A stretch of DNA of 58,509 nt, from the IMG/VR virus record IMGVR_UViG_3300005611_000027, positions 1 to 58,509 of that record. One strand, written 5' to 3'. The position numbers and the translations under genes were made by a program. Below are positions 31,163 through 45,735 of the stretch, piece by piece (position 1 is the first letter of the stretch; each line of letters begins with the position of its first letter). This stretch comes from a virus (Duplodnaviria; Caudoviricetes). The notes under the pieces are model-generated. The model was not told the DNA's origin and did not search any database. It saw only the letters and a program-made list of their open reading frames with translations.

Positions 31163-31191
31163 CGCTCCCTCTCTGGCTCCTCCCTTGAACT

Positions 31192-31217
31192 GACCCCGCT
31201 TCGGCGGGGTCTTTTTT
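31192..31217 (+). terminator. Intrinsic terminator after polA
   Basis: GACCCCGC-TTCG-GCGGGGTC-TTTTTT. Confidence 0.9.
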
Positions 31218-32738: not shown

Positions 32739-32900
32739 ATGACTGATTGCCTGCACTGCGGAGCGCCTATGATTATAGGTGGCAACCACGACTGTGAGGA
32801 GTACGATGACGAGTACATCATCGTCACAAACTACAGTTGCCCGGAATGTCACGCGTTCATGCTGTTCTATACTCCTAACGAAGAGACAGCGCCTCAATAG
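32739..32900 (+). CDS. Small Zn-ribbon protein (53 aa)
   Basis: CLHCG...IVTNYSCPEC; GAGG RBS. Confidence 0.7.
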   Translation: MTDCLHCGAPMIIGGNHDCEEYDDEYIIVTNYSCPECHAFMLFYTPNEETAPQ

Positions 32901-33276
32901 CCGCGGCCCACGAATCTTCTTCTAAATTATCCGTCCGAAAAACCGTCGCCGGTAGACGAACCGTCTTCTGGGTAACGGCAGAAGTGGTCCGAAACAGAAC
33001 GCGCTCTGTATCAGCCGCGACCAGCGCCACGATCTCCGAGCCAGATTTATCCAAGCTACGTTTCTCTGCGCCAGCGTTCGTGGAGAACTGATAGTAGAGC
33101 GTCTTCCGGTCTTTCCTGATAACCGACGACTTGACTTGGATCCGGAGCAACTGCCCACGGACCTCGGCTATGAGGTCCGCTTCGTTGTAGTTCACGATAG
33201 CGCAGTCCACCCCAAGCTTCATAAGCTTGAGAGCGCAGATCAGTTCGCCAATCGTCCCTCGCCGGATGTTCAGCAT
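32875..33276 (-). CDS. Free-standing PD-(D/E)xK endonuclease (homing-endonuclease-like)
   Basis: G.IGE...ADLIAE.....RIQVKS. Confidence 0.75.
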   Translation of the reverse strand: MLNIRRGTIGELICALKLMKLGVDCAIVNYNEADLIAEVRGQLLRIQVKSSVIRKDRKTLYYQFSTNAGAEKRSLDKSGSEIVALVAADTERVLFRTTSAVTQKTVRLPATVFRTDNLEEDSWAAAIEALSLR

Positions 33277-33306
33277 AAAAAAAATTATACAAACGTATTT
33301 TTCAAA

Positions 33307-33335
33307 TTGCATCCACGAATGCGCTGATATAGGAT
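33307..33335 (+). promoter_or_regulatory. Sigma70-like promoter of candidate sRNA
   Basis: TTGCAT-17-TAGGAT preceded by an AT-rich tract. Confidence 0.6.
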
Positions 33336-33340
33336 ACTCA

Positions 33341-33426
33341 AGCTGGACGTTTTACTCATGGGCGGCCCGGCATGACTCCTTGTGGAAACGGTCCCCTTTT
33401 GTCTCCGGGGGCCGTTTCTTTTTTAT
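33341..33426 (+). ncRNA. Candidate trans-acting anti-RBS small RNA
   Basis: Own promoter and terminator, no credible ORF; TGACTCCTTGTG and TTTGTCTCC are exact complements of cassette-gene leaders. Confidence 0.6.
33385..33426 (+). terminator. Intrinsic terminator
   Basis: GAAACGGTCCCC-loop-GGGGGCCGTTTC-TTTTTT. Confidence 0.85.
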
Positions 33427-33455
33427 TTGACATACTCGCATACGGGATCTACGCT
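33427..33455 (+). promoter_or_regulatory. Sigma70-like promoter
   Basis: TTGACA-17-TACGCT. Confidence 0.7.
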
Positions 33456-33480
33456 GCCTCCATAAACAAAAGGAGGAGTT

Positions 33481-33705
33481 ATGCAATCCCGCATGATGAG
33501 TTTAGTTGAGGCCAATACCAACGCCGTGGTCGGCTTGGTGGTCTCTTGGTGCTTCACCTACTGGGGCCTGCCCTTGTTTGGTTTGGAGCCCAGCCCGGTC
33601 GAAGCGACCCAAATCACCGCCGTTTATTTCTTTCTAAGCGTAGGGCGATCTTACGTTCTGCGTCGTGTGTTTAACCATTTGCGCCCCCGGAGGTTTGTTC
33701 GATGA
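33481..33705 (+). CDS. Small two-TM membrane protein
   Basis: QSR..SLVEA.TN.VVG...RSYVLRR.F; AGGAGG RBS. Confidence 0.8.
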   Translation: MQSRMMSLVEANTNAVVGLVVSWCFTYWGLPLFGLEPSPVEATQITAVYFFLSVGRSYVLRRVFNHLRPRRFVR

Positions 33706-33932
33706 GTATCGCCAAGCGCCTTATAGAAGAAGAACTAAATAAACCCAGCCAAGAAGAACTAGACGAAATATACGAAGACAAACTCGTGCAGATCGTTGCC
33801 TCAAGAATGTCGTGGCAAGGGGCCTGCGCTCAAATGGACGATCTGATAAGATCTTCCCTCCGGCAAGACGATTTATCAAAAAAAGAGAGGGTAGAAATGC
33901 TCGCAGCATGGGAGAGGATACAGCGCGGGTGA
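33702..33932 (+). CDS. Hypothetical protein
   Basis: Coupled ORF with GGAGG RBS. Confidence 0.65.
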   Translation: MSIAKRLIEEELNKPSQEELDEIYEDKLVQIVASRMSWQGACAQMDDLIRSSLRQDDLSKKERVEMLAAWERIQRG

Positions 33933-38740: not shown

Positions 38741-38907
38741 ACACACCTTTAGATTACAAACCTTGGTACACGGCCCTCGTGCCTTGCGACTTCTGCGGGC
38801 AACTAACGCGTGGGCGAGTTTACGACGGTGCGAATCAAGTGGTCTGCGGTTCGTGCAACACGGTCCTCGTAGACGACGTTGAAAAAGCGAGACCCGATTG
38901 GGGTTAA
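38737..38907 (+). CDS. Small Zn-ribbon protein
   Basis: CDFCG...CGSC; GGAG RBS. Confidence 0.65.
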   Translation: MNTPLDYKPWYTALVPCDFCGQLTRGRVYDGANQVVCGSCNTVLVDDVEKARPDWG

Positions 38908-38914
38908 TTTTTAT

Positions 38915-38944
38915 TTGACATTCTCCCATAGCAGGCCATAAGAT
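38915..38944 (+). promoter_or_regulatory. Sigma70-like promoter
   Basis: TTGACA-18-TAAGAT containing TCCCATA. Confidence 0.55.
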
Positions 38945-39797: not shown

Positions 39798-39932
39798 AGG
39801 ACATAATAAGAAGAGGCGACAAAAGCGCCGCGCTGTTGGACATCGTAAATCGGAACTACTCAGATGAGCCGTGGGCCTCAACCGGCAGCGATGCCGTATG
39901 ACGCTTTTCGCGTTTCACACAAGGAGTCACCT

Positions 39933-40664
39933 ATGGCAAAACTGAAACTGAGAGCCATCAAAGATGGCAAAGACAAAAACCGGTATTGCGGGCCGTCCGT
40001 GATATCGGCACTGACCGACCTGACGACCGGGGAAGCTGCAAGGCTGATACGGAAGCAGAACGGTCGCCAAGCAATCCGGGGCTCGTACACTCACGAGGTT
40101 CTGGACGCACTTCGATCTTGCAACATTCAGGCTCGCCGATGGGAAAAGCCCGGCGTTCGATTAAATCGGAAGACCGGGCCCACGCTTGCCGGATGGCTGA
40201 AGATGTCGAAGGAAGATCGGACCCCCGGTCGCGTCTTCCTCATCGTCGCCGGATGGCACTGGCAACTCGTCAGCGGTCGGCGCTACACCTGCGGTCGGAT
40301 ACGAGATATCGTATCGATCAAAGACAAGCGGGTGAAGCGGAGGGCACGGGTCGCAGAGGTCTACGAGCTGACCTCGGACAACGTGACCAAGCCGGACATC
40401 GCTGTGTCAAAGCCCAAGTCAAAGTCCAACCCCTGTTACTACCGGGTCAGGAAACTTACCCAGCAGTACCCGGAGTTCGATCTGACCTACGAAAAAGATG
40501 ACTTGGGCTACTACGTTGCAATGAGCGAAGAGCTCGAACAGCACGCTTTGGACACTCAACACCCCCTATGCGACGAGCATTATTGCTACGATATGGGGGA
40601 AGTCGCACAGCGTATGGAGGAAATGGTGGCGTTCGCAAAGGAGCACTACCCAAAGATAAAGTAA
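39933..40664 (+). CDS. Putative papain-fold (C39-like) cysteine peptidase-domain protein
   Basis: YCGPSVISAL...RGSY..EV..AL...FLIVAGWHWQLV; CACAAGGAGTCA leader. Confidence 0.5.
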   Translation: MAKLKLRAIKDGKDKNRYCGPSVISALTDLTTGEAARLIRKQNGRQAIRGSYTHEVLDALRSCNIQARRWEKPGVRLNRKTGPTLAGWLKMSKEDRTPGRVFLIVAGWHWQLVSGRRYTCGRIRDIVSIKDKRVKRRARVAEVYELTSDNVTKPDIAVSKPKSKSNPCYYRVRKLTQQYPEFDLTYEKDDLGYYVAMSEELEQHALDTQHPLCDEHYCYDMGEVAQRMEEMVAFAKEHYPKIK

Positions 40665-41053: not shown

Positions 41054-41662
41054 ATGCCGATGAAAAACAGACCCCACAAGGCCAAGAGCCGAGAGCTTAT
41101 TGACCGCCCCCTGACCCGGAAGCAGGAACTGTTCGTGAAGGAGCTTGTTTCCAAGGACGGCCAGATCACAATGCGTGAGGCGGCCATCAATGCTGGGTAC
41201 AGCGCAGGCGCTGCCCACACCCGAGCTTACGAGCTCACCAACCCCCACATCTCCCCGCATGTATGCAAGGCGATCCGTGAATACCGGGCCGAGCTCGATG
41301 AGAAGTACGGCGTCAGCTATCGCCGCCACCTCCGTGACCTTCAGACCATCCGGGATATGGCTTTGCAGAACGGCGCTTACAGCGCTGCGGTACAAGCCGA
41401 GTATCGGCGCGGTCAGGCGCAGGGAGATATCTACGTTAGTAAGTCCGAGATCAGACACGGCAGCATTGACTCGATGTCGAAGGACGAAGTCATGCGAGCC
41501 TTGGAGGAGATTAAGCAAAGCTATGCCCCGATCACCATCGATGTTACCCCGGAGTCCGAACCAAATGCCTCGAACCGCTCTAAAGCGAGAGAGCGGCTTT
41601 TATCGTCAGGTGAAGGAGGCGATGAAGAGGTACTCGACGAAACTGATCCCGACGAGGATTGA
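41054..41662 (+). CDS. terS: Terminase small subunit
   Basis: LTRKQELFVKE...EAAINAGYS...A...A.EL HTH. Confidence 0.85.
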   Translation: MPMKNRPHKAKSRELIDRPLTRKQELFVKELVSKDGQITMREAAINAGYSAGAAHTRAYELTNPHISPHVCKAIREYRAELDEKYGVSYRRHLRDLQTIRDMALQNGAYSAAVQAEYRRGQAQGDIYVSKSEIRHGSIDSMSKDEVMRALEEIKQSYAPITIDVTPESEPNASNRSKARERLLSSGEGGDEEVLDETDPDED

Positions 41663-42005: not shown

Positions 42006-42029
42006 TCCAACTAACCAAGGAGTCAGGAC

Positions 42030-42245
42030 ATGAACTATCGAATCTATTTTACTTTCCCGGCAGGAGACCGGGCCACCAACGCGCAGGTGTTTGCAACTCG
42101 TGAGGAAGCGTTGAACAGCGCCGCCGACCGGTTCGCGGCATGGACCATGCCGACAGGTTATGAGGTCGAGGAGACCGAAGACCCGGTCACCTATCAGTGG
42201 AACCGAGATGAGGGGGACGTTCCTATCGACCGGGCCGCGGCATGA
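42030..42245 (+). CDS. Small cassette protein
   Basis: NAQVFATREEA..SA...F..W; CAAGGAGTCA leader. Confidence 0.75.
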   Translation: MNYRIYFTFPAGDRATNAQVFATREEALNSAADRFAAWTMPTGYEVEETEDPVTYQWNRDEGDVPIDRAAA

Positions 42246-42480: not shown

Positions 42481-42505
42481 CAACCCGTTTCCTTGTGTGA
42501 GAACT

Positions 42506-42535
42506 AGCGCCGCCTCGAGCGGCGCTTTTTTTATT
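42506..42535 (+). terminator. Intrinsic terminator
   Basis: AGCGCCGC-CTCGA-GCGGCGCT-TTTTTT. Confidence 0.85.
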
Positions 42536-42619
42536 TAGAAGAGGGGTTGTGCGGCATGCGTTTATGTGCGAGAAGATGGGTGCGGCACTTCCGCCGCATG
42601 CCAACAAGGAGACAAACCA

Positions 42620-43800: not shown

Positions 43801-43860
43801 GTGCAAAGATAAGCGGGCGCGGTATAAGACAAATCCCACAACACACAAGGAGTCAAAACA

Positions 43861-44532
43861 ATGGCGAATTATTCCCTAACCCGTAAATCCTCGAATAAGA
43901 AAACCGGCCCGATTCCCGTTAGCACGACAAGCGCGGACACTTGCCCGGCGGCTTGCCCTTTTAAGGGCGCGGGATGTTATGCGGACGGTTATCCCTTAAA
44001 GGGGCGCTGGGATGAAGTGACCCGGGGCGAACGCGGCGGGACGCTCGAGCAATTTTGCGCGGACGTTGCGGCGCTGCCCGCCGGGCAATTTTGGCGGCAC
44101 AATCAGGCGGGCGACTTGCCGGGCGACGGCGAGCGCATCGACTCCGCCGGGCTCGCGGCTATCGTCGCGGCGAACAATGGAAAGCGCGGGTTTACGTTCA
44201 CCCACTACAGCCCAGCCCGCAAACGCAACGCCGCCGCAATTCGCAAAGCCAACGCCGCCGGGTTTACCGTTAACCTAAGCGCAAACAATCTCGAGCACGC
44301 CGACGAACTAGCGGCGCTGGACATTGGCCCGGTCGCGGTTGTATTGCCCGCCGCGTTTGACGCTCGCAAAACCACCACCCCGGCAGGCCGCCCGGTCGCG
44401 CAATGCCCGGCAACGTATCGGGAAACAACGTGCGCCGATTGCCAGCTATGCGCCCAACAATCGCGCCGCGTTATTGTTGGTTTTCCCGCTCATGGCGTTC
44501 ACAAGCGCAAGGCGGACGCCGTCGCCGCCTAA
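43861..44532 (+). CDS. Cys-rich putative Fe-S / radical-SAM-like phage protein
   Basis: SSNKKTG...CPAACPF...GCYA, WRHNQAGD, CPA.....C.DC.LC, GFPAHG. Confidence 0.65.
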   Translation: MANYSLTRKSSNKKTGPIPVSTTSADTCPAACPFKGAGCYADGYPLKGRWDEVTRGERGGTLEQFCADVAALPAGQFWRHNQAGDLPGDGERIDSAGLAAIVAANNGKRGFTFTHYSPARKRNAAAIRKANAAGFTVNLSANNLEHADELAALDIGPVAVVLPAAFDARKTTTPAGRPVAQCPATYRETTCADCQLCAQQSRRVIVGFPAHGVHKRKADAVAA

Positions 44533-44588: not shown

Positions 44589-44829
44589 GCGCGTTGCGAT
44601 AGTGAATCAAGGCGCGGCCCGCCGCCCGCCCAGCGCTGAAAGCTACCGTGCGCCGCGTACCGTGGCCCGTGGCGCGTGTTTCGCGGCCCGCCCGGCCCGG
44701 ACCCCGGCCCCCGGCCCAGCGCCCGCCGTGCGCGATCCTAGCGCCTGCCGCTTTGCGCCTTGCATTATGCGCCGCCATATGCGAAAAAATGCGCGCGGCA
44801 TATCCCGCCGCGAAACAAGGAGTCCTGAC

Positions 44830-45042
44830 ATGTGTGAAAATCTAGTTAGTTACTACGTCCCCAGCGGTTTCGATTATCGCGAGGTGCAGACCCGGTGTGG
44901 ATCAACCGACATCCATGGCGAGGAAGCGCTTTGTGACGATTGCGCCGCCGATCCTCGAGCCCGGGCCGAGCATGAGCGCCGCGCCCGACTCAGCGCCGAG
45001 GACAATGCGACGGCCCGCGCCGCTGGATGGGGGGAATACTAA
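44830..45042 (+). CDS. Small Cys-containing cassette protein
   Basis: MCEN.V.YYVP.G.DYRE....CGST..HG....CDDC; ACAAGGAGTC leader. Confidence 0.75.
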   Translation: MCENLVSYYVPSGFDYREVQTRCGSTDIHGEEALCDDCAADPRARAEHERRARLSAEDNATARAAGWGEY

Positions 45043-45290: not shown

Positions 45291-45363
45291 TGTGTCGAGT
45301 CCCGCCCTATGGGATAAATCCCGTGCGGCTCAATCCCGGGCCGCCACACAAGGAGTCAAAAAC

Positions 45364-45735
45364 ATGAGTGAAGCATTCATCCCCCCAGCCCCCGCGACCC
45401 CCGAACCGGAGATCACCGTTCAGGGATTCGGCACGGGCACCCTCGCCGAGATCGAGCACCACATCGCCCAGCTAAAGGATGAGCTGGAGAGCGCCCGCCT
45501 CGAGCTCGAGCTGGCCCGGAAGCGCGAGATCGAGCGCCAGCCCCTAGTCGAGGCGATCCAGCACATCGTGGACCAGAGCCTTGATCGCTGGGTTCTGAGC
45601 GAAGGCCCGCTCGAGGTGCTGGGGGCCATCATCGAGTCATCCGTCGAGGATCAGCTATCATCGTCTATTGACTCCCATATCGAGGCGGCGCTCGAGAATG
45701 CCACGGTTGATGTCGAGGCCTATATCCGGCTGTAA
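45364..45735 (+). CDS. Acidic coiled-coil cassette protein
   Basis: 123 aa, E-rich; CACAAGGAGTCA leader. Confidence 0.75.
   Translation: MSEAFIPPAPATPEPEITVQGFGTGTLAEIEHHIAQLKDELESARLELELARKREIERQPLVEAIQHIVDQSLDRWVLSEGPLEVLGAIIESSVEDQLSSSIDSHIEAALENATVDVEAYIRL

What the first reader, a model, noticed from the sequence alone, without database searches (positions are those of the whole stretch)
33307..33426. Candidate phage sRNA that is antisense to the shared ribosome-binding leader of a set of cassette genes
Seen: an ORF-free ~85-nt unit with its own promoter (TTGCAT-17-TAGGAT) and terminator. Its segment TGACTCCTTGTG (33373-33384) is the exact complement of CACAAGGAGTCA in three leaders 6-12 kb away (39918, 43844, 45347). 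It also matches 10 nt at 42016 and 44815. The terminator loop TTTGTCTCC (33398-33406) is the exact complement of GGAGACAAA (42608-42616), the one leader that deviates (DUF932 gene). A third segment, TTTTACTCATG (33350-33360), can pair over the start codon of 45364 (11 bp, two G:U). Inference: one trans-acting multi-seed sRNA shuts off translation of an early or host-takeover regulon by RBS occlusion. Caveat: part of each match is the generic Shine-Dalgarno core.
Basis: partly seen in the sequence, partly recalled or inferred. Interest (0 to 1): 0.92.

Follow-up and report, generated by a model that had tools for sequence, protein, structure and literature searches.

The report
Candidate phage small RNA against cassette leaders
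An uncultured marine phage carries a short non-coding unit that looks like a small regulatory RNA able to cover the ribosome-binding sites of several of the phage's own accessory genes, but whether it is made and acts this way has not been shown.

Summary
An ~83-nt unit (33342-33424, + strand) lies between a PD-(D/E)XK gene and the DUF7220 early gene. It has a modest sigma-70-like promoter and a 12-bp terminator.

- **Complementarity:** TGACTCCTTGTG is the exact complement of three gene leaders (4 copies of the 12-mer in the window, 0.2 expected) and matches two more over 10 nt. With the CTCCTT core fixed and the flanks randomised, 7 of 3000 trials did as well.
- **Conservation:** all 24 related contigs with a DUF7220 at least 76% identical carry the unit (12 distinct versions). 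ACTCCTTGT never changes. It is doubled in one lineage, and a third lineage keeps it with a different body and terminator.
- **Non-coding:** frame-breaking indels exclude coding on either strand.
- **Weak points:** the terminator-loop "seed" is chance-level and not conserved. The TTTACTCATG segment mostly forms a conserved stem. I found no compensatory seed-leader change. Metatranscriptome contigs do not resolve a discrete transcript. No Rfam family matches.

Best reading (about 0.5): a new phage trans-acting small RNA that blocks the ribosome-binding sites of accessory cassette genes, most strongly gene 45364. A second conserved anti-leader tract lies at 42489. This scan had noted that tract on the same window; it had no look-alike of the unit itself on other DNA.

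The parts
33307..33335 (+). Candidate sigma-70-type promoter, TTGCAT-17-TAGGAT
   Evidence: Read from the sequence. It matches 7 of 12 consensus positions and the scan did not list it. Both hexamers are kept in 11 of 11 aligned-type versions, with TTGCAT or TTGCAC as the first. The L088 type has TTGCAG-17-TATTAT at the aligned position. The -35 hexamer overlaps the -35 of the divergent PD-(D/E)XK promoter.
33342..33424 (+). Predicted small RNA of about 83 nt. The 5' end is inferred from the -10 hexamer and the 3' end from the terminator T-run.
   Evidence: Folds. No Rfam family reaches its threshold. Indels break every overlapping frame.
33356..33375 (+). Hairpin 1: conserved stem UCAUG/CAUGA enclosing a variable loop (GGCGGCCCGG in the window)
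   Evidence: RNAalifold consensus: 10 of 11 sequences keep the four outer pairs and 11 of 11 the G-C pair. The loop differs between lineages.
33373..33384 (+). Seed TGACTCCTTGTG. The 9-nt core ACTCCTTGT is present in all 12 versions.
   Evidence: Mean unpaired probability is 0.39-0.89, above the whole-RNA mean in 33 of 33 computations.
33385..33424 (+). Rho-independent terminator: 12-13 bp stem, 10-nt loop, U-run
   Evidence: Three stem pairs vary only by G-C/G-U or U-G/C-G exchange, and none is broken in 11 sequences. On the minus strand these wobble pairs would be A-C mismatches.
39918..39929 (+). Leader CACAAGGAGTCA of the 243-aa gene that starts at 39933
   Evidence: Predicted net binding energy (complex minus the two free RNAs) -16.6 kcal/mol, rank 47 of 1992 start sites. 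1 of 300 head shuffles binds as well.
42016..42025 (+). Leader CAAGGAGTCA (10-nt match) of the 71-aa gene that starts at 42030
   Evidence: Binding-energy rank 486 of 1992, so this is a weak candidate.
43844..43855 (+). Leader CACAAGGAGTCA of the DUF7227 gene that starts at 43861
   Evidence: Rank 29 of 1992. 2 of 300 shuffles bind as well.
44815..44824 (+). Leader ACAAGGAGTC (10-nt match) of the 70-aa gene that starts at 44830
   Evidence: Rank 24 of 1992.
45336..45374 (+). Translation start region of the 123-aa gene at 45364. It holds three complementary blocks: CCGGGCCGCC, CACAAGGAGTCA and CATGAGTGAAGC.
   Evidence: Best of 1992 start sites, -28.2 kcal/mol. 0 of 300 shuffles bind as well.
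33474..33484 (+). Shine-Dalgarno-to-AUG stretch of the adjacent DUF7220 gene (AGGAGTTATGC), complementary to GCATGACTCCT of the unit
   Evidence: Inverted repeat I3, 11 nt, 91%. 0 of 300 shuffles bind as well in the window type. Not better than shuffles in the L088, L086, L087 or L080 types.
33427..33455 (+). Separate promoter of the DUF7220 operon, TTGACA-17-TACGCT, directly after the terminator
   Evidence: Conserved in all relatives that carry the unit.
33274..33289 (-). Start of the PD-(D/E)XK gene, with TATAAT placed 7 nt before the ATG (leaderless-type arrangement)
   Evidence: Read from the sequence. L011 has TTGATC-17-TTCAAT placed 5 nt before its ATG. The Pfam PDDEXK_5 match begins at residue 7 of the protein and position 7 of the profile.
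42489..42526 (+). Second anti-leader tract TTCCTTGTGTGA, 5 nt before the terminator at 42506-42526
   Evidence: Conserved in L082, L086 and L096 although the upstream flank differs.

Best explanation
The unit is a phage gene for a small non-coding RNA of about 83-105 nt. I infer that the host polymerase transcribes it from its own weak-to-moderate promoter and stops at a strong intrinsic terminator just before the early-operon promoter. Between a 5' hairpin and the terminator it presents a CU-rich stretch, ACUCCUUGU. This stretch pairs with the Shine-Dalgarno region, ACAAGGAGU(CA), shared by a family of separately transcribed accessory cassette genes lying between terS and terL. By covering the ribosome-binding site it would lower their translation. 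The strongest predicted target is gene 45364, where pairing extends across the start codon.

Shown: the anatomy, the conservation, the non-coding nature, and complementarity beyond the generic core. Inferred: that the RNA is made as a discrete species, that it pairs in vivo, and the direction of its effect.
For: 1. Anatomy: promoter, hairpin, linker, terminator and U-run on the plus strand.
2. Distribution: of 33 DUF7220 loci with upstream sequence, all 24 with at least 76% protein identity carry the unit and all 9 with 71% or less lack it. They give 12 distinct versions.
3. Conservation: GCATGAYTCCTTGT is invariant in 11 of 11 aligned versions, while the hairpin loop and terminator loop vary.
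4. Lineage variants: the L005 lineage has two tandem seeds. L075 has a 2-nt insertion whose complement, CCACACAAGGAGTCA, would match the window's leaders over 14-15 nt. The L088 lineage keeps promoter position, size, seed and terminator position with an otherwise different sequence.
5. Terminator stem changes all preserve wobble pairs on the plus strand.
6. Complementarity beyond the Shine-Dalgarno core: 7 of 3000 random-flank trials reach the observed number of 10-nt matches, and 2 of 3000 the 12-nt matches.
7. Gene 45364 has the best binding energy of 1992 start sites. Shuffles of the RNA's 41-nt head bind as well in 0 of 300 (45364), 2 of 300 (43861) and 1 of 300 (39933) trials.
8. The same leader family is present in all three lineages. 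In the L078+L096 genome its members rank 2, 3 and 6 of 852 start sites.
9. In other lineages, leader pairing beats most shuffles: 8, 2, 5 and 13 of 200 as good.
10. Seed accessibility is above the RNA average in 33 of 33 computations.
11. A second anti-leader tract sits before another terminator and is conserved.
Against: - No transcript ends are known. Metatranscriptome contigs run across the terminator and could be DNA or read-through.
- The promoter matches only 7 of 12 consensus positions and was not listed by the scan.
- No compensatory seed-leader change was found. The seed's 3' flank varies (GUGG, GUUG, GUAUGG, GUGUGG) while leaders stay CACAAGGAGTC. Contiguous pairing therefore falls from 12 nt to 11 nt (L005 type) and 9 nt (L088 type).
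- Six of the nine conserved seed bases are the generic anti-Shine-Dalgarno core. Shuffled controls lose that core, so part of their deficit is generic.
- Leader-family ranks are modest in L082 (16, 20, 22, 97, 156 and 176 of 718) and L086 (19 and 38 of 611). In the window, 42030 and 42620 rank 486 and 314 of 1992.
- In some folds the seed is partly paired with the 5' end, depending on the assumed start.
- The reverse complement of the unit resembles a cassette start region, so complementarity could partly reflect common descent.
Confidence: 0.5

Rival explanations
1. The unit is a boundary element. A terminator stops plus-strand read-through from the lysis genes before the early promoter. The anti-leader stretch is an inverted relic of a cassette start region, carried along or kept for DNA-level reasons such as recombination at module joints. 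It has no RNA-regulatory role.
For: The reverse complement of the unit reads like a cassette start: CACAAGGAGTCA, then ATG, then CATGAGTAAA. Leaders sit at mosaic breakpoints between relatives: the window/L096 alignment breaks at about 39879 and about 42030. The same leader precedes different genes in different genomes. No compensatory covariation was found. The promoter is weak by consensus.
Against: A relic should decay, yet the 9-mer is kept in 12 of 12 versions, including the L088 lineage where the surrounding sequence is replaced. It is duplicated in one lineage and extended towards the leader in L075. The Shine-Dalgarno-to-ATG spacing on the minus strand is unsuitable for translation: 2 nt to the nearest ATG and 16 nt to ATGAGT. 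A second plus-strand anti-leader tract also lies directly before a terminator.
Confidence: 0.17
2. It is a real small RNA, but its main targets are host mRNAs or Shine-Dalgarno sites in general, acting as a mimic of the 16S rRNA 3' end. The match to phage cassette leaders is a by-product of their strong Shine-Dalgarno sequences.
For: The invariant core CUCCUU is the generic anti-Shine-Dalgarno sequence. Only three further bases (AC and U) are conserved in all lineages. A third CU-rich tract lies before the terminator at 31192.
Against: The window-type flanks match the leader family far better than random flanks do. Other AAGGAG or AGGAG start sites of the phage rank low: 41622 is 1755th, 3899 is 1534th, 31271 is 1350th and 24434 is 975th of 1992. 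The host is unknown, so host targets could not be examined.
Confidence: 0.13
3. It is a local regulator of the neighbouring DUF7220 early gene, arranged like the P1/P7 c4 RNA. The RNA, or a read-through leader, pairs with the ribosome-binding site and first codons of the gene just downstream.
For: GCATGACTCCT pairs with AGGAGTTATGC as an inverted repeat. Colinear pairing continues to about codon 8. 0 of 300 shuffles bind as well. This region ranks 2nd of 1992 start sites in the window, 1st of 718 in L082 and 1st of 852 in L078+L096.
Against: Pairing is not better than shuffles in four other versions: 270 of 300 (L088), 192 of 300 (L086), 300 of 300 (L087) and 88 of 300 (L080) shuffles bind as well. 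DUF7220 has its own promoter after the terminator. In the window its energy (-24.9) is close to background hits of about -24.
Confidence: 0.1
4. The shared 12-mer is a binding site for a protein, either a DNA operator or an RNA-binding translational repressor of the T4 RegA or CsrA kind. The copy in the unit is simply one more site.
For: The motif recurs at fixed positions in several cassettes and once in inverted orientation. ACAAGGA resembles the CsrA core motif; this resemblance is recalled from memory and was not tested.
Against: The motif is not palindromic. It keeps a fixed distance to start codons (6-8 nt) rather than to promoters. An RNA-binding protein would not recognise the complementary strand. 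No candidate protein was identified.
Confidence: 0.05
5. The region codes on the minus strand, either as an N-terminal extension of the PD-(D/E)XK protein or as a small protein translated from CACAAGGAGTCATG.
For: In the L005 type and in L080, as I read the sequences by hand, an ORF starting after the motif runs in frame into the PD-(D/E)XK gene. Indels of 21 and 12 nt between lineages are multiples of three.
Against: In the window type the frame stops after 5 codons. The A-run before the PD-(D/E)XK ATG varies between 6, 7 and 8 among near-identical contigs, including 7 against 8 within the L005 type, which breaks the fusion frame. A -10 hexamer lies 5-7 nt before the annotated ATG in two lineages. 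The Pfam match starts at residue 7. Terminator G-U pairs would be A-C mismatches on the minus strand.
Confidence: 0.03

Closest known systems
c4 antisense RNA of phages P1 and P7 (immI region)
   Same: It is a phage-encoded small RNA that acts by base pairing on a phage mRNA around the ribosome-binding site. Its complementary segments are presented in accessible parts of the fold (review PMC12197685, passages seen). Its gene lies just upstream of a target; this detail is recalled from memory.
   Different: c4 controls a single antirepressor operon and belongs to an immunity system. This unit has its own promoter and terminator. It matches a family of separately transcribed cassette leaders 6-12 kb away, and its pairing with the neighbouring gene is not conserved. 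No Rfam family, so no c4 model either, matched (that Rfam holds a c4 model is recalled).
Cuckoo/CcsR (ar14) small RNAs of Alphaproteobacteria
   Same: These are short RNAs that display an anti-Shine-Dalgarno sequence, often in several copies, and act on many mRNAs (PMC8034643, passages seen).
   Different: Their defining motif is CCUCCUCCC in two hairpin loops, and they sit next to DUF1127 genes. Here the motif is ACUCCUUGU in a linker, the neighbours are PDDEXK_5 and DUF7220, and no Rfam hit was found.
Classical enterobacterial trans-acting small RNAs with an intrinsic terminator (for example OmrA/B), and phage-borne ones (DicF, VpdS)
   Same: They share the hairpin, single-stranded seed, terminator and U-tail layout, and they occlude the ribosome-binding site of several targets. 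Sources: OmrA/B abstract in the listing; DicF passage; VpdS seen only as a reference entry.
   Different: Those RNAs mainly act on host genes, or on a mix of host and phage genes. Here the predicted regulon is a set of the phage's own exchangeable cassettes that share one leader. Dependence on Hfq or any other chaperone is unknown.
T4 RegA translational repressor
   Same: It is one phage factor that turns down translation of many phage mRNAs by binding their translation start regions (PMC3014915, title and start of abstract only).
   Different: RegA is a protein. Here the proposed factor is an RNA, and recognition is by base pairing.

Membership tests
Trans-acting base-pairing small RNA (independent gene) | Own promoter | tested here: inconclusive
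   TTGCAT-17-TAGGAT matches 7 of 12 consensus positions and was not listed by the scan. The hexamers are kept in 11 of 11 versions. L088 has TTGCAG-17-TATTAT at the aligned position. No transcription start data exist.
Trans-acting base-pairing small RNA (independent gene) | Intrinsic terminator with U-tail on the same strand | tested here: met
   12-13 bp stem followed by a U-run. Only wobble-preserving changes occur in 11 sequences. The L088 type has a different but equally strong terminator.
Trans-acting base-pairing small RNA (independent gene) | Non-coding | tested here: met
   1-nt indels in the terminator loop, the U-run and the A-run among near-identical relatives break all overlapping frames.
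Trans-acting base-pairing small RNA (independent gene) | Conserved, accessible seed | tested here: met
   ACTCCTTGT is present in 12 of 12 versions. Unpaired probability is 0.39-0.89, above the RNA mean in 33 of 33 computations. In some minimum-energy folds it is partly paired.
Trans-acting base-pairing small RNA (independent gene) | Target complementarity beyond chance, at translation start regions | tested here: met
Trans-acting base-pairing small RNA (independent gene) | Seed-target covariation | tested here: not met
   Leaders are unchanged while the seed flank varies, and no compensatory pair was found. The only suggestive cases are the L075 insertion and the fit of the GUUG variant to the CAACAAGGAG leader of the DUF932 gene.
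Trans-acting base-pairing small RNA (independent gene) | Discrete transcript in cells | tested here: inconclusive
   RNA-library contigs from three runs cover 33232-33633 but bridge the terminator. Contigs cannot show transcript ends.
Trans-acting base-pairing small RNA (independent gene) | Chaperone (Hfq or ProQ) binding | not testable with these tools
   The host is unknown. Only a U-tail and terminator are visible.
P1/P7 c4 antisense RNA | Sequence and structure family | tested here: not met
   No Rfam family reached its threshold at the locus. The best hit was ctRNA_pT181 at 23.1 bits against a threshold of 56.
P1/P7 c4 antisense RNA | Pairs with the ribosome-binding site of the gene downstream in the same region | tested here: inconclusive
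   Met in the window type (0 of 300 shuffles as good) but not in the four other versions tested.
P1/P7 c4 antisense RNA | Part of an immunity/antirepressor module | not tested
   The neighbours are PDDEXK_5 and DUF7220. The rest of the early operon was not annotated.
Cuckoo/CcsR (ar14) | CCUCCUCCC motif in two hairpin loops | tested here: not met
   The motif is absent from the unit. The defining feature is taken from PMC8034643.
Cuckoo/CcsR (ar14) | Adjacent to a DUF1127 gene | tested here: not met
   Pfam assigns the neighbours to PDDEXK_5 and DUF7220.
Cis-antisense RNA (P22 sar or lambda OOP type) | Overlaps its target gene on the opposite strand | tested here: not met
   The unit lies wholly in the 204-nt intergenic space 33277-33480.

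The most novel reading that the evidence does not exclude
The phage runs a plug-in post-transcriptional control system. Exchangeable accessory cassettes all carry one standard leader, CACAAGGAGTCA, which also marks the recombination joints. Any newly acquired cassette therefore falls at once under the control of a small set of phage anti-leader RNAs. These would be this stand-alone small RNA, a 3'UTR tract at 42489, and possibly a third CU-rich tract at 31170.
Probability: 0.22. Interest if true: 0.8.

Novelty: new member of a known kind. Interest (0 to 1): 0.58.

Why it matters
Few phage-encoded small RNAs are understood. Most known ones come from prophages of enteric bacteria and act on host genes (review PMC12197685). 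This candidate comes from an uncultured marine/estuarine phage group with no close cultured relative; the nearest terminases, about 62% identical, are from pelagiphages. Its predicted targets are the phage's own mosaic accessory genes. If confirmed, it would show RNA-level control of accessory cassettes in environmental phages. It would also give a simple, testable pair: a 9-12-nt seed and a standard leader. As it stands, this is a well-supported prediction and not a demonstrated regulator.

Tried and rejected
- **Nucleotide search of phage records** with 32800-33800: no match.
- **Protein search with the PD-(D/E)XK protein** in phage records: no match. No cultured phage is therefore known to carry the locus.
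- **DUF7220 search in bacterial genome contigs:** no relative, so there is no host or prophage lead.
- **Earlier notes by sequence:** nothing found.
- **Rfam:** nothing reaches threshold at the locus.
- **Expression.** Six RNA runs hold 6-16% of the sampled words. Four of them, from four studies, were laid on the window. Contigs of a close relative cover 33246-33633 (X1), 33355-33506 (X3) and 33232-33475 (X6). X2 has no cover there. All are contigs, they bridge the terminator, and the libraries may contain DNA. This is no evidence for or against a discrete RNA.
- **Plain duplex-energy scan** of a 23-nt seed window: swamped by GC-rich matches and not used.
- **My crude gene finder** picked shadow ORFs and was not used for statistics. 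All start codons followed by at least 40 codons were used instead.
- **Relatives of gene 45364 in viral contigs:** only 1 locus. It overlaps L078 at 99.6% identity over 3161 nt, so I treated the two as one genome type.
- **The wide early-promoter pattern** returned 53 loci, of which 9 carry the unit; the rest are unrelated phages.
- **Rejected ideas:** the terminator loop as a seed; minus-strand coding; a plus-strand small protein, because the ATGACTCC frame runs through the terminator and is broken by indels; conserved control of DUF7220.
- **Not seen:** the review's Supplementary Table S1, which lists 38 phage small RNAs without known function. Supplements are closed, and it may bear on novelty. 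"Not described" rests on the searches and on Rfam only.
Full report
**Context.** The window is a complete 58.5-kb virus record. Its large terminase is about 62% identical to those of Pelagibacter phages HTVC027P and 023Pt_psg01. There is no nucleotide match in phage records. The finding lies in the 204-nt space 33277-33480. On one side is a minus-strand PD-(D/E)XK gene (PDDEXK_5, E 2.8e-5). On the other is the plus-strand DUF7220 gene (E 1.7e-23), which opens the rightward operon.

**Observation.**
- The promoter is TTGCAT-17-TAGGAT at 33307-33335.
- The terminator has 12-nt arms (33385-33396 and 33407-33418) followed by a T-run.
- The whole unit folds better than all 200 shuffles, z = -3.5.
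- CACAAGGAGTCA occurs four times, once on the minus strand inside the unit and three times just before start codons. The expectation is 0.2.
- The two 10-nt matches are real.
- The loop match to GGAGACAAA is exact but chance-level: 7 of 100 shuffles give 2 or more copies.
- The third segment pairs with the start of gene 45364 over 12 bp with two G:U. This is the best non-self match of that segment in the window.

Chance 12-mers to other parts of the unit also exist. The fair test is therefore whether the flanks of the generic CTCCTT core fit the leaders. With random flanks, matches of at least 10 nt number 5 against a mean of 0.51 (7 of 3000 trials as good). Matches of 12 nt number 3 against 0.04 (2 of 3000).

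**Relatives.** DUF7220 was used as an anchor.
- Viral contigs gave 12 loci and metagenome contigs gave 22. One locus lacks upstream sequence.
- All 24 loci with at least 76% identity carry the unit. All 9 with 71% or less lack it.
- Some of these 24 are the same contig held in both collections. They reduce to 12 distinct versions in three lineages.
- Among 11 alignable versions, the invariant blocks are GCATGAYTCCTTGT and the terminator arms. The hairpin loop, the terminator loop and the run lengths vary.
- The L005 lineage has two tandem seeds (GAUUCCUUGUUGACUCCUUGUUGA).
- L075 has a 2-nt insertion. Its complement, CCACACAAGGAGTCA, would match the window's leaders over 14-15 nt.
- L080 has lost TTTACTCAT but keeps the seed.
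- The L088 lineage (DUF7220 76-77% identical) has TTGCAG-17-TATTAT at the aligned promoter position. Its seed is at the 5' end, in a small loop. It has a different middle hairpin and a different terminator, and the same downstream early promoter.

**Structure and strand.** RNAalifold finds a conserved stem, UCAUG/CAUGA, around the variable loop, plus the terminator. Three terminator pairs change only between G-C and G-U or between U-G and C-G, and none is broken. This explains why TTTACTCATG is conserved: its 3' half is one arm of a stem. It also fits a plus-strand RNA, because these wobble pairs would be A-C mismatches on the minus strand. The seed is more accessible than the RNA average in all 33 computations. 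In several minimum-energy folds, however, it is partly paired with the 5' end, depending on the assumed start.

**Coding.** The overlapping ORFs are broken by 1-nt indels among near-identical contigs. On the minus strand the window frame stops after five codons. The A-run before the PD-(D/E)XK start varies between 6, 7 and 8. A -10 hexamer sits 5-7 nt before that start in two lineages, which suggests a leaderless mRNA that begins there. The Pfam match begins at residue 7.

**Targets.** Six genes between 39.9 and 45.4 kb share a leader of the form (A/C)(A/C)CAAGGAG(T/A)C. They lie around and between terS (41054-41662) and terL (46171). They are of unknown function: DUF932, DUF7227 and small proteins.

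I computed the net energy of pairing (complex minus the two free RNAs) for all 1992 start codons that are followed by at least 40 codons:

| Gene start | Energy (kcal/mol) | Rank of 1992 |
|---|---|---|
| 45364 | -28.2 (background mean -7.5, sd 3.8) | 1 |
| 44830 | -18.4 | 24 |
| 43861 | -17.9 | 29 |
| 39933 | -16.6 | 47 |
| 42620 | -10.9 | 314 |
| 42030 | -9.6 | 486 |

Other strong Shine-Dalgarno sites of the phage rank from 285 to 1755. Shuffling the 41-nt head of the RNA gives binding as good in 0 of 300 trials for 45364, 2 of 300 for 43861 and 1 of 300 for 39933. In the window type, gene 45364 has three complementary blocks: CCGGGCCGCC, the leader, and CATGAGTGAAGC.

The leader family is present in all lineages. 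Its ranks in relatives are as follows:

| Genome | Leader-family ranks | Start sites ranked |
|---|---|---|
| L078+L096 | 2, 3, 6 | 852 |
| L082 | 16, 20, 22, 97, 156, 176 | 718 |
| L086 | 19, 38 | 611 |

In L086 and L088, shuffles bind the leaders as well in 2 to 13 of 200 trials.

**Against the target model.**
- Leaders do not change with the seed. Contiguous pairing is 12 nt in the window type, 11 nt in the L005 type and 9 nt in the L088 type.
- The start-codon block of gene 45364 is kept in L096 but not in L082.
- The loop block is not kept in the L078 type.

**The neighbouring gene.** The unit is also an imperfect inverted repeat of the DUF7220 start region, GCATGACTCCT against AGGAGTTATGC. 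Colinear pairing continues to about codon 8. No shuffle of 300 binds as well. In four other versions, however, this pairing is no better than shuffles. It is therefore lineage-specific and not the conserved function.

**Origin.** The reverse complement of the unit resembles cassette start regions, and leaders coincide with mosaic joints. The unit may have arisen as an inverted copy of a start region. A pure relic is unlikely, given the seed's conservation through sequence replacement, its duplication, and a second plus-strand anti-leader tract (TTCCTTGTGTGA, 42489-42500). That tract lies 5 nt before the terminator at 42506 and is conserved in L082, L086 and L096.

**Expression.** RNA-library contigs from three runs cover the locus but bridge the terminator, and contigs cannot show transcript ends. 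This is inconclusive.

**Comparison with known systems.**
- No Rfam family fits.
- The mechanism proposed is that of classical trans-acting small RNAs. Among phage RNAs it is closest to P1/P7 c4, which pairs around a ribosome-binding site (PMC12197685, passages). The unit is not a c4 family member, and its neighbour-gene pairing is not conserved.
- It resembles the Cuckoo/CcsR RNAs in displaying an anti-Shine-Dalgarno sequence (PMC8034643, passages). It lacks their motif, their loop placement and their DUF1127 context.
- In function it would be an RNA counterpart of T4 RegA (PMC3014915, listing and start of abstract only).

**Verdict.** The best reading is a new phage small RNA that blocks the ribosome-binding sites of a set of the phage's own accessory cassettes (confidence about 0.5). 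The rivals are a boundary element carrying a leader relic, a general or host-directed anti-Shine-Dalgarno RNA, and a local regulator of DUF7220. Interest is 0.58. This is a new member of a known kind.

Noticed in passing
window 42489-42526: A second anti-leader tract, TTCCTTGTGTGA, lies in a 3'UTR 5 nt before a strong terminator. It is conserved in L082, L086 and L096 although the upstream flank differs. It may be a 3'UTR-derived small RNA against the same leaders.
   Followed up: partly
window 31165-31217: A third CU-rich tract, GGCTCCTCCCTTGAACTG, lies directly before the terminator at 31192, after the 646-aa gene. It gives weak Rfam hits to SorX (28.6 bits, E 0.002) and mmgR.
   Followed up: no
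loci L023-L073, e.g. L031:9885-9960: The exact promoter core TTGACATTATCGCATAC, usually followed by TATAAT-like hexamers and a conserved hairpin-rich stretch (ATCGAAGGGATGA..CTTCG.TTGGGGCGGGCAAGCCCC), recurs in dozens of otherwise unrelated viral contigs. It may be a shared early promoter with a structured RNA in another marine phage group.
   Followed up: no
window 33274-33289 (minus strand); L011:3755-3790: The PD-(D/E)XK gene has a -10 hexamer only 5-7 nt before its ATG in two lineages, which suggests a leaderless mRNA. The homopolymer between them varies between 6 and 8 nt among near-identical contigs.
   Followed up: partly
window 33456-33480: The DUF7220 5'UTR begins GCCTCC and can pair with its own GGAGG Shine-Dalgarno sequence 10 nt downstream. 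It is also 78% complementary over 18 nt to the terminator loop and 3' arm of the unit (inverted repeat I1).
   Followed up: no
window 39879-39933 and 42016-42033; L056:10456, 11307; L078:13977, 14395: The leader CACAAGGAGTC(A/G)CCTATG, often preceded by GAGCCGTGGGCCTC, sits at breakpoints of mosaic similarity between related phages and precedes different genes in different genomes. It may serve as a recombination joint.
   Followed up: partly
window 38891-38944: A second terminator plus TTGACAT promoter junction, 91% identical over 23 nt to the junction after the unit.
   Followed up: no
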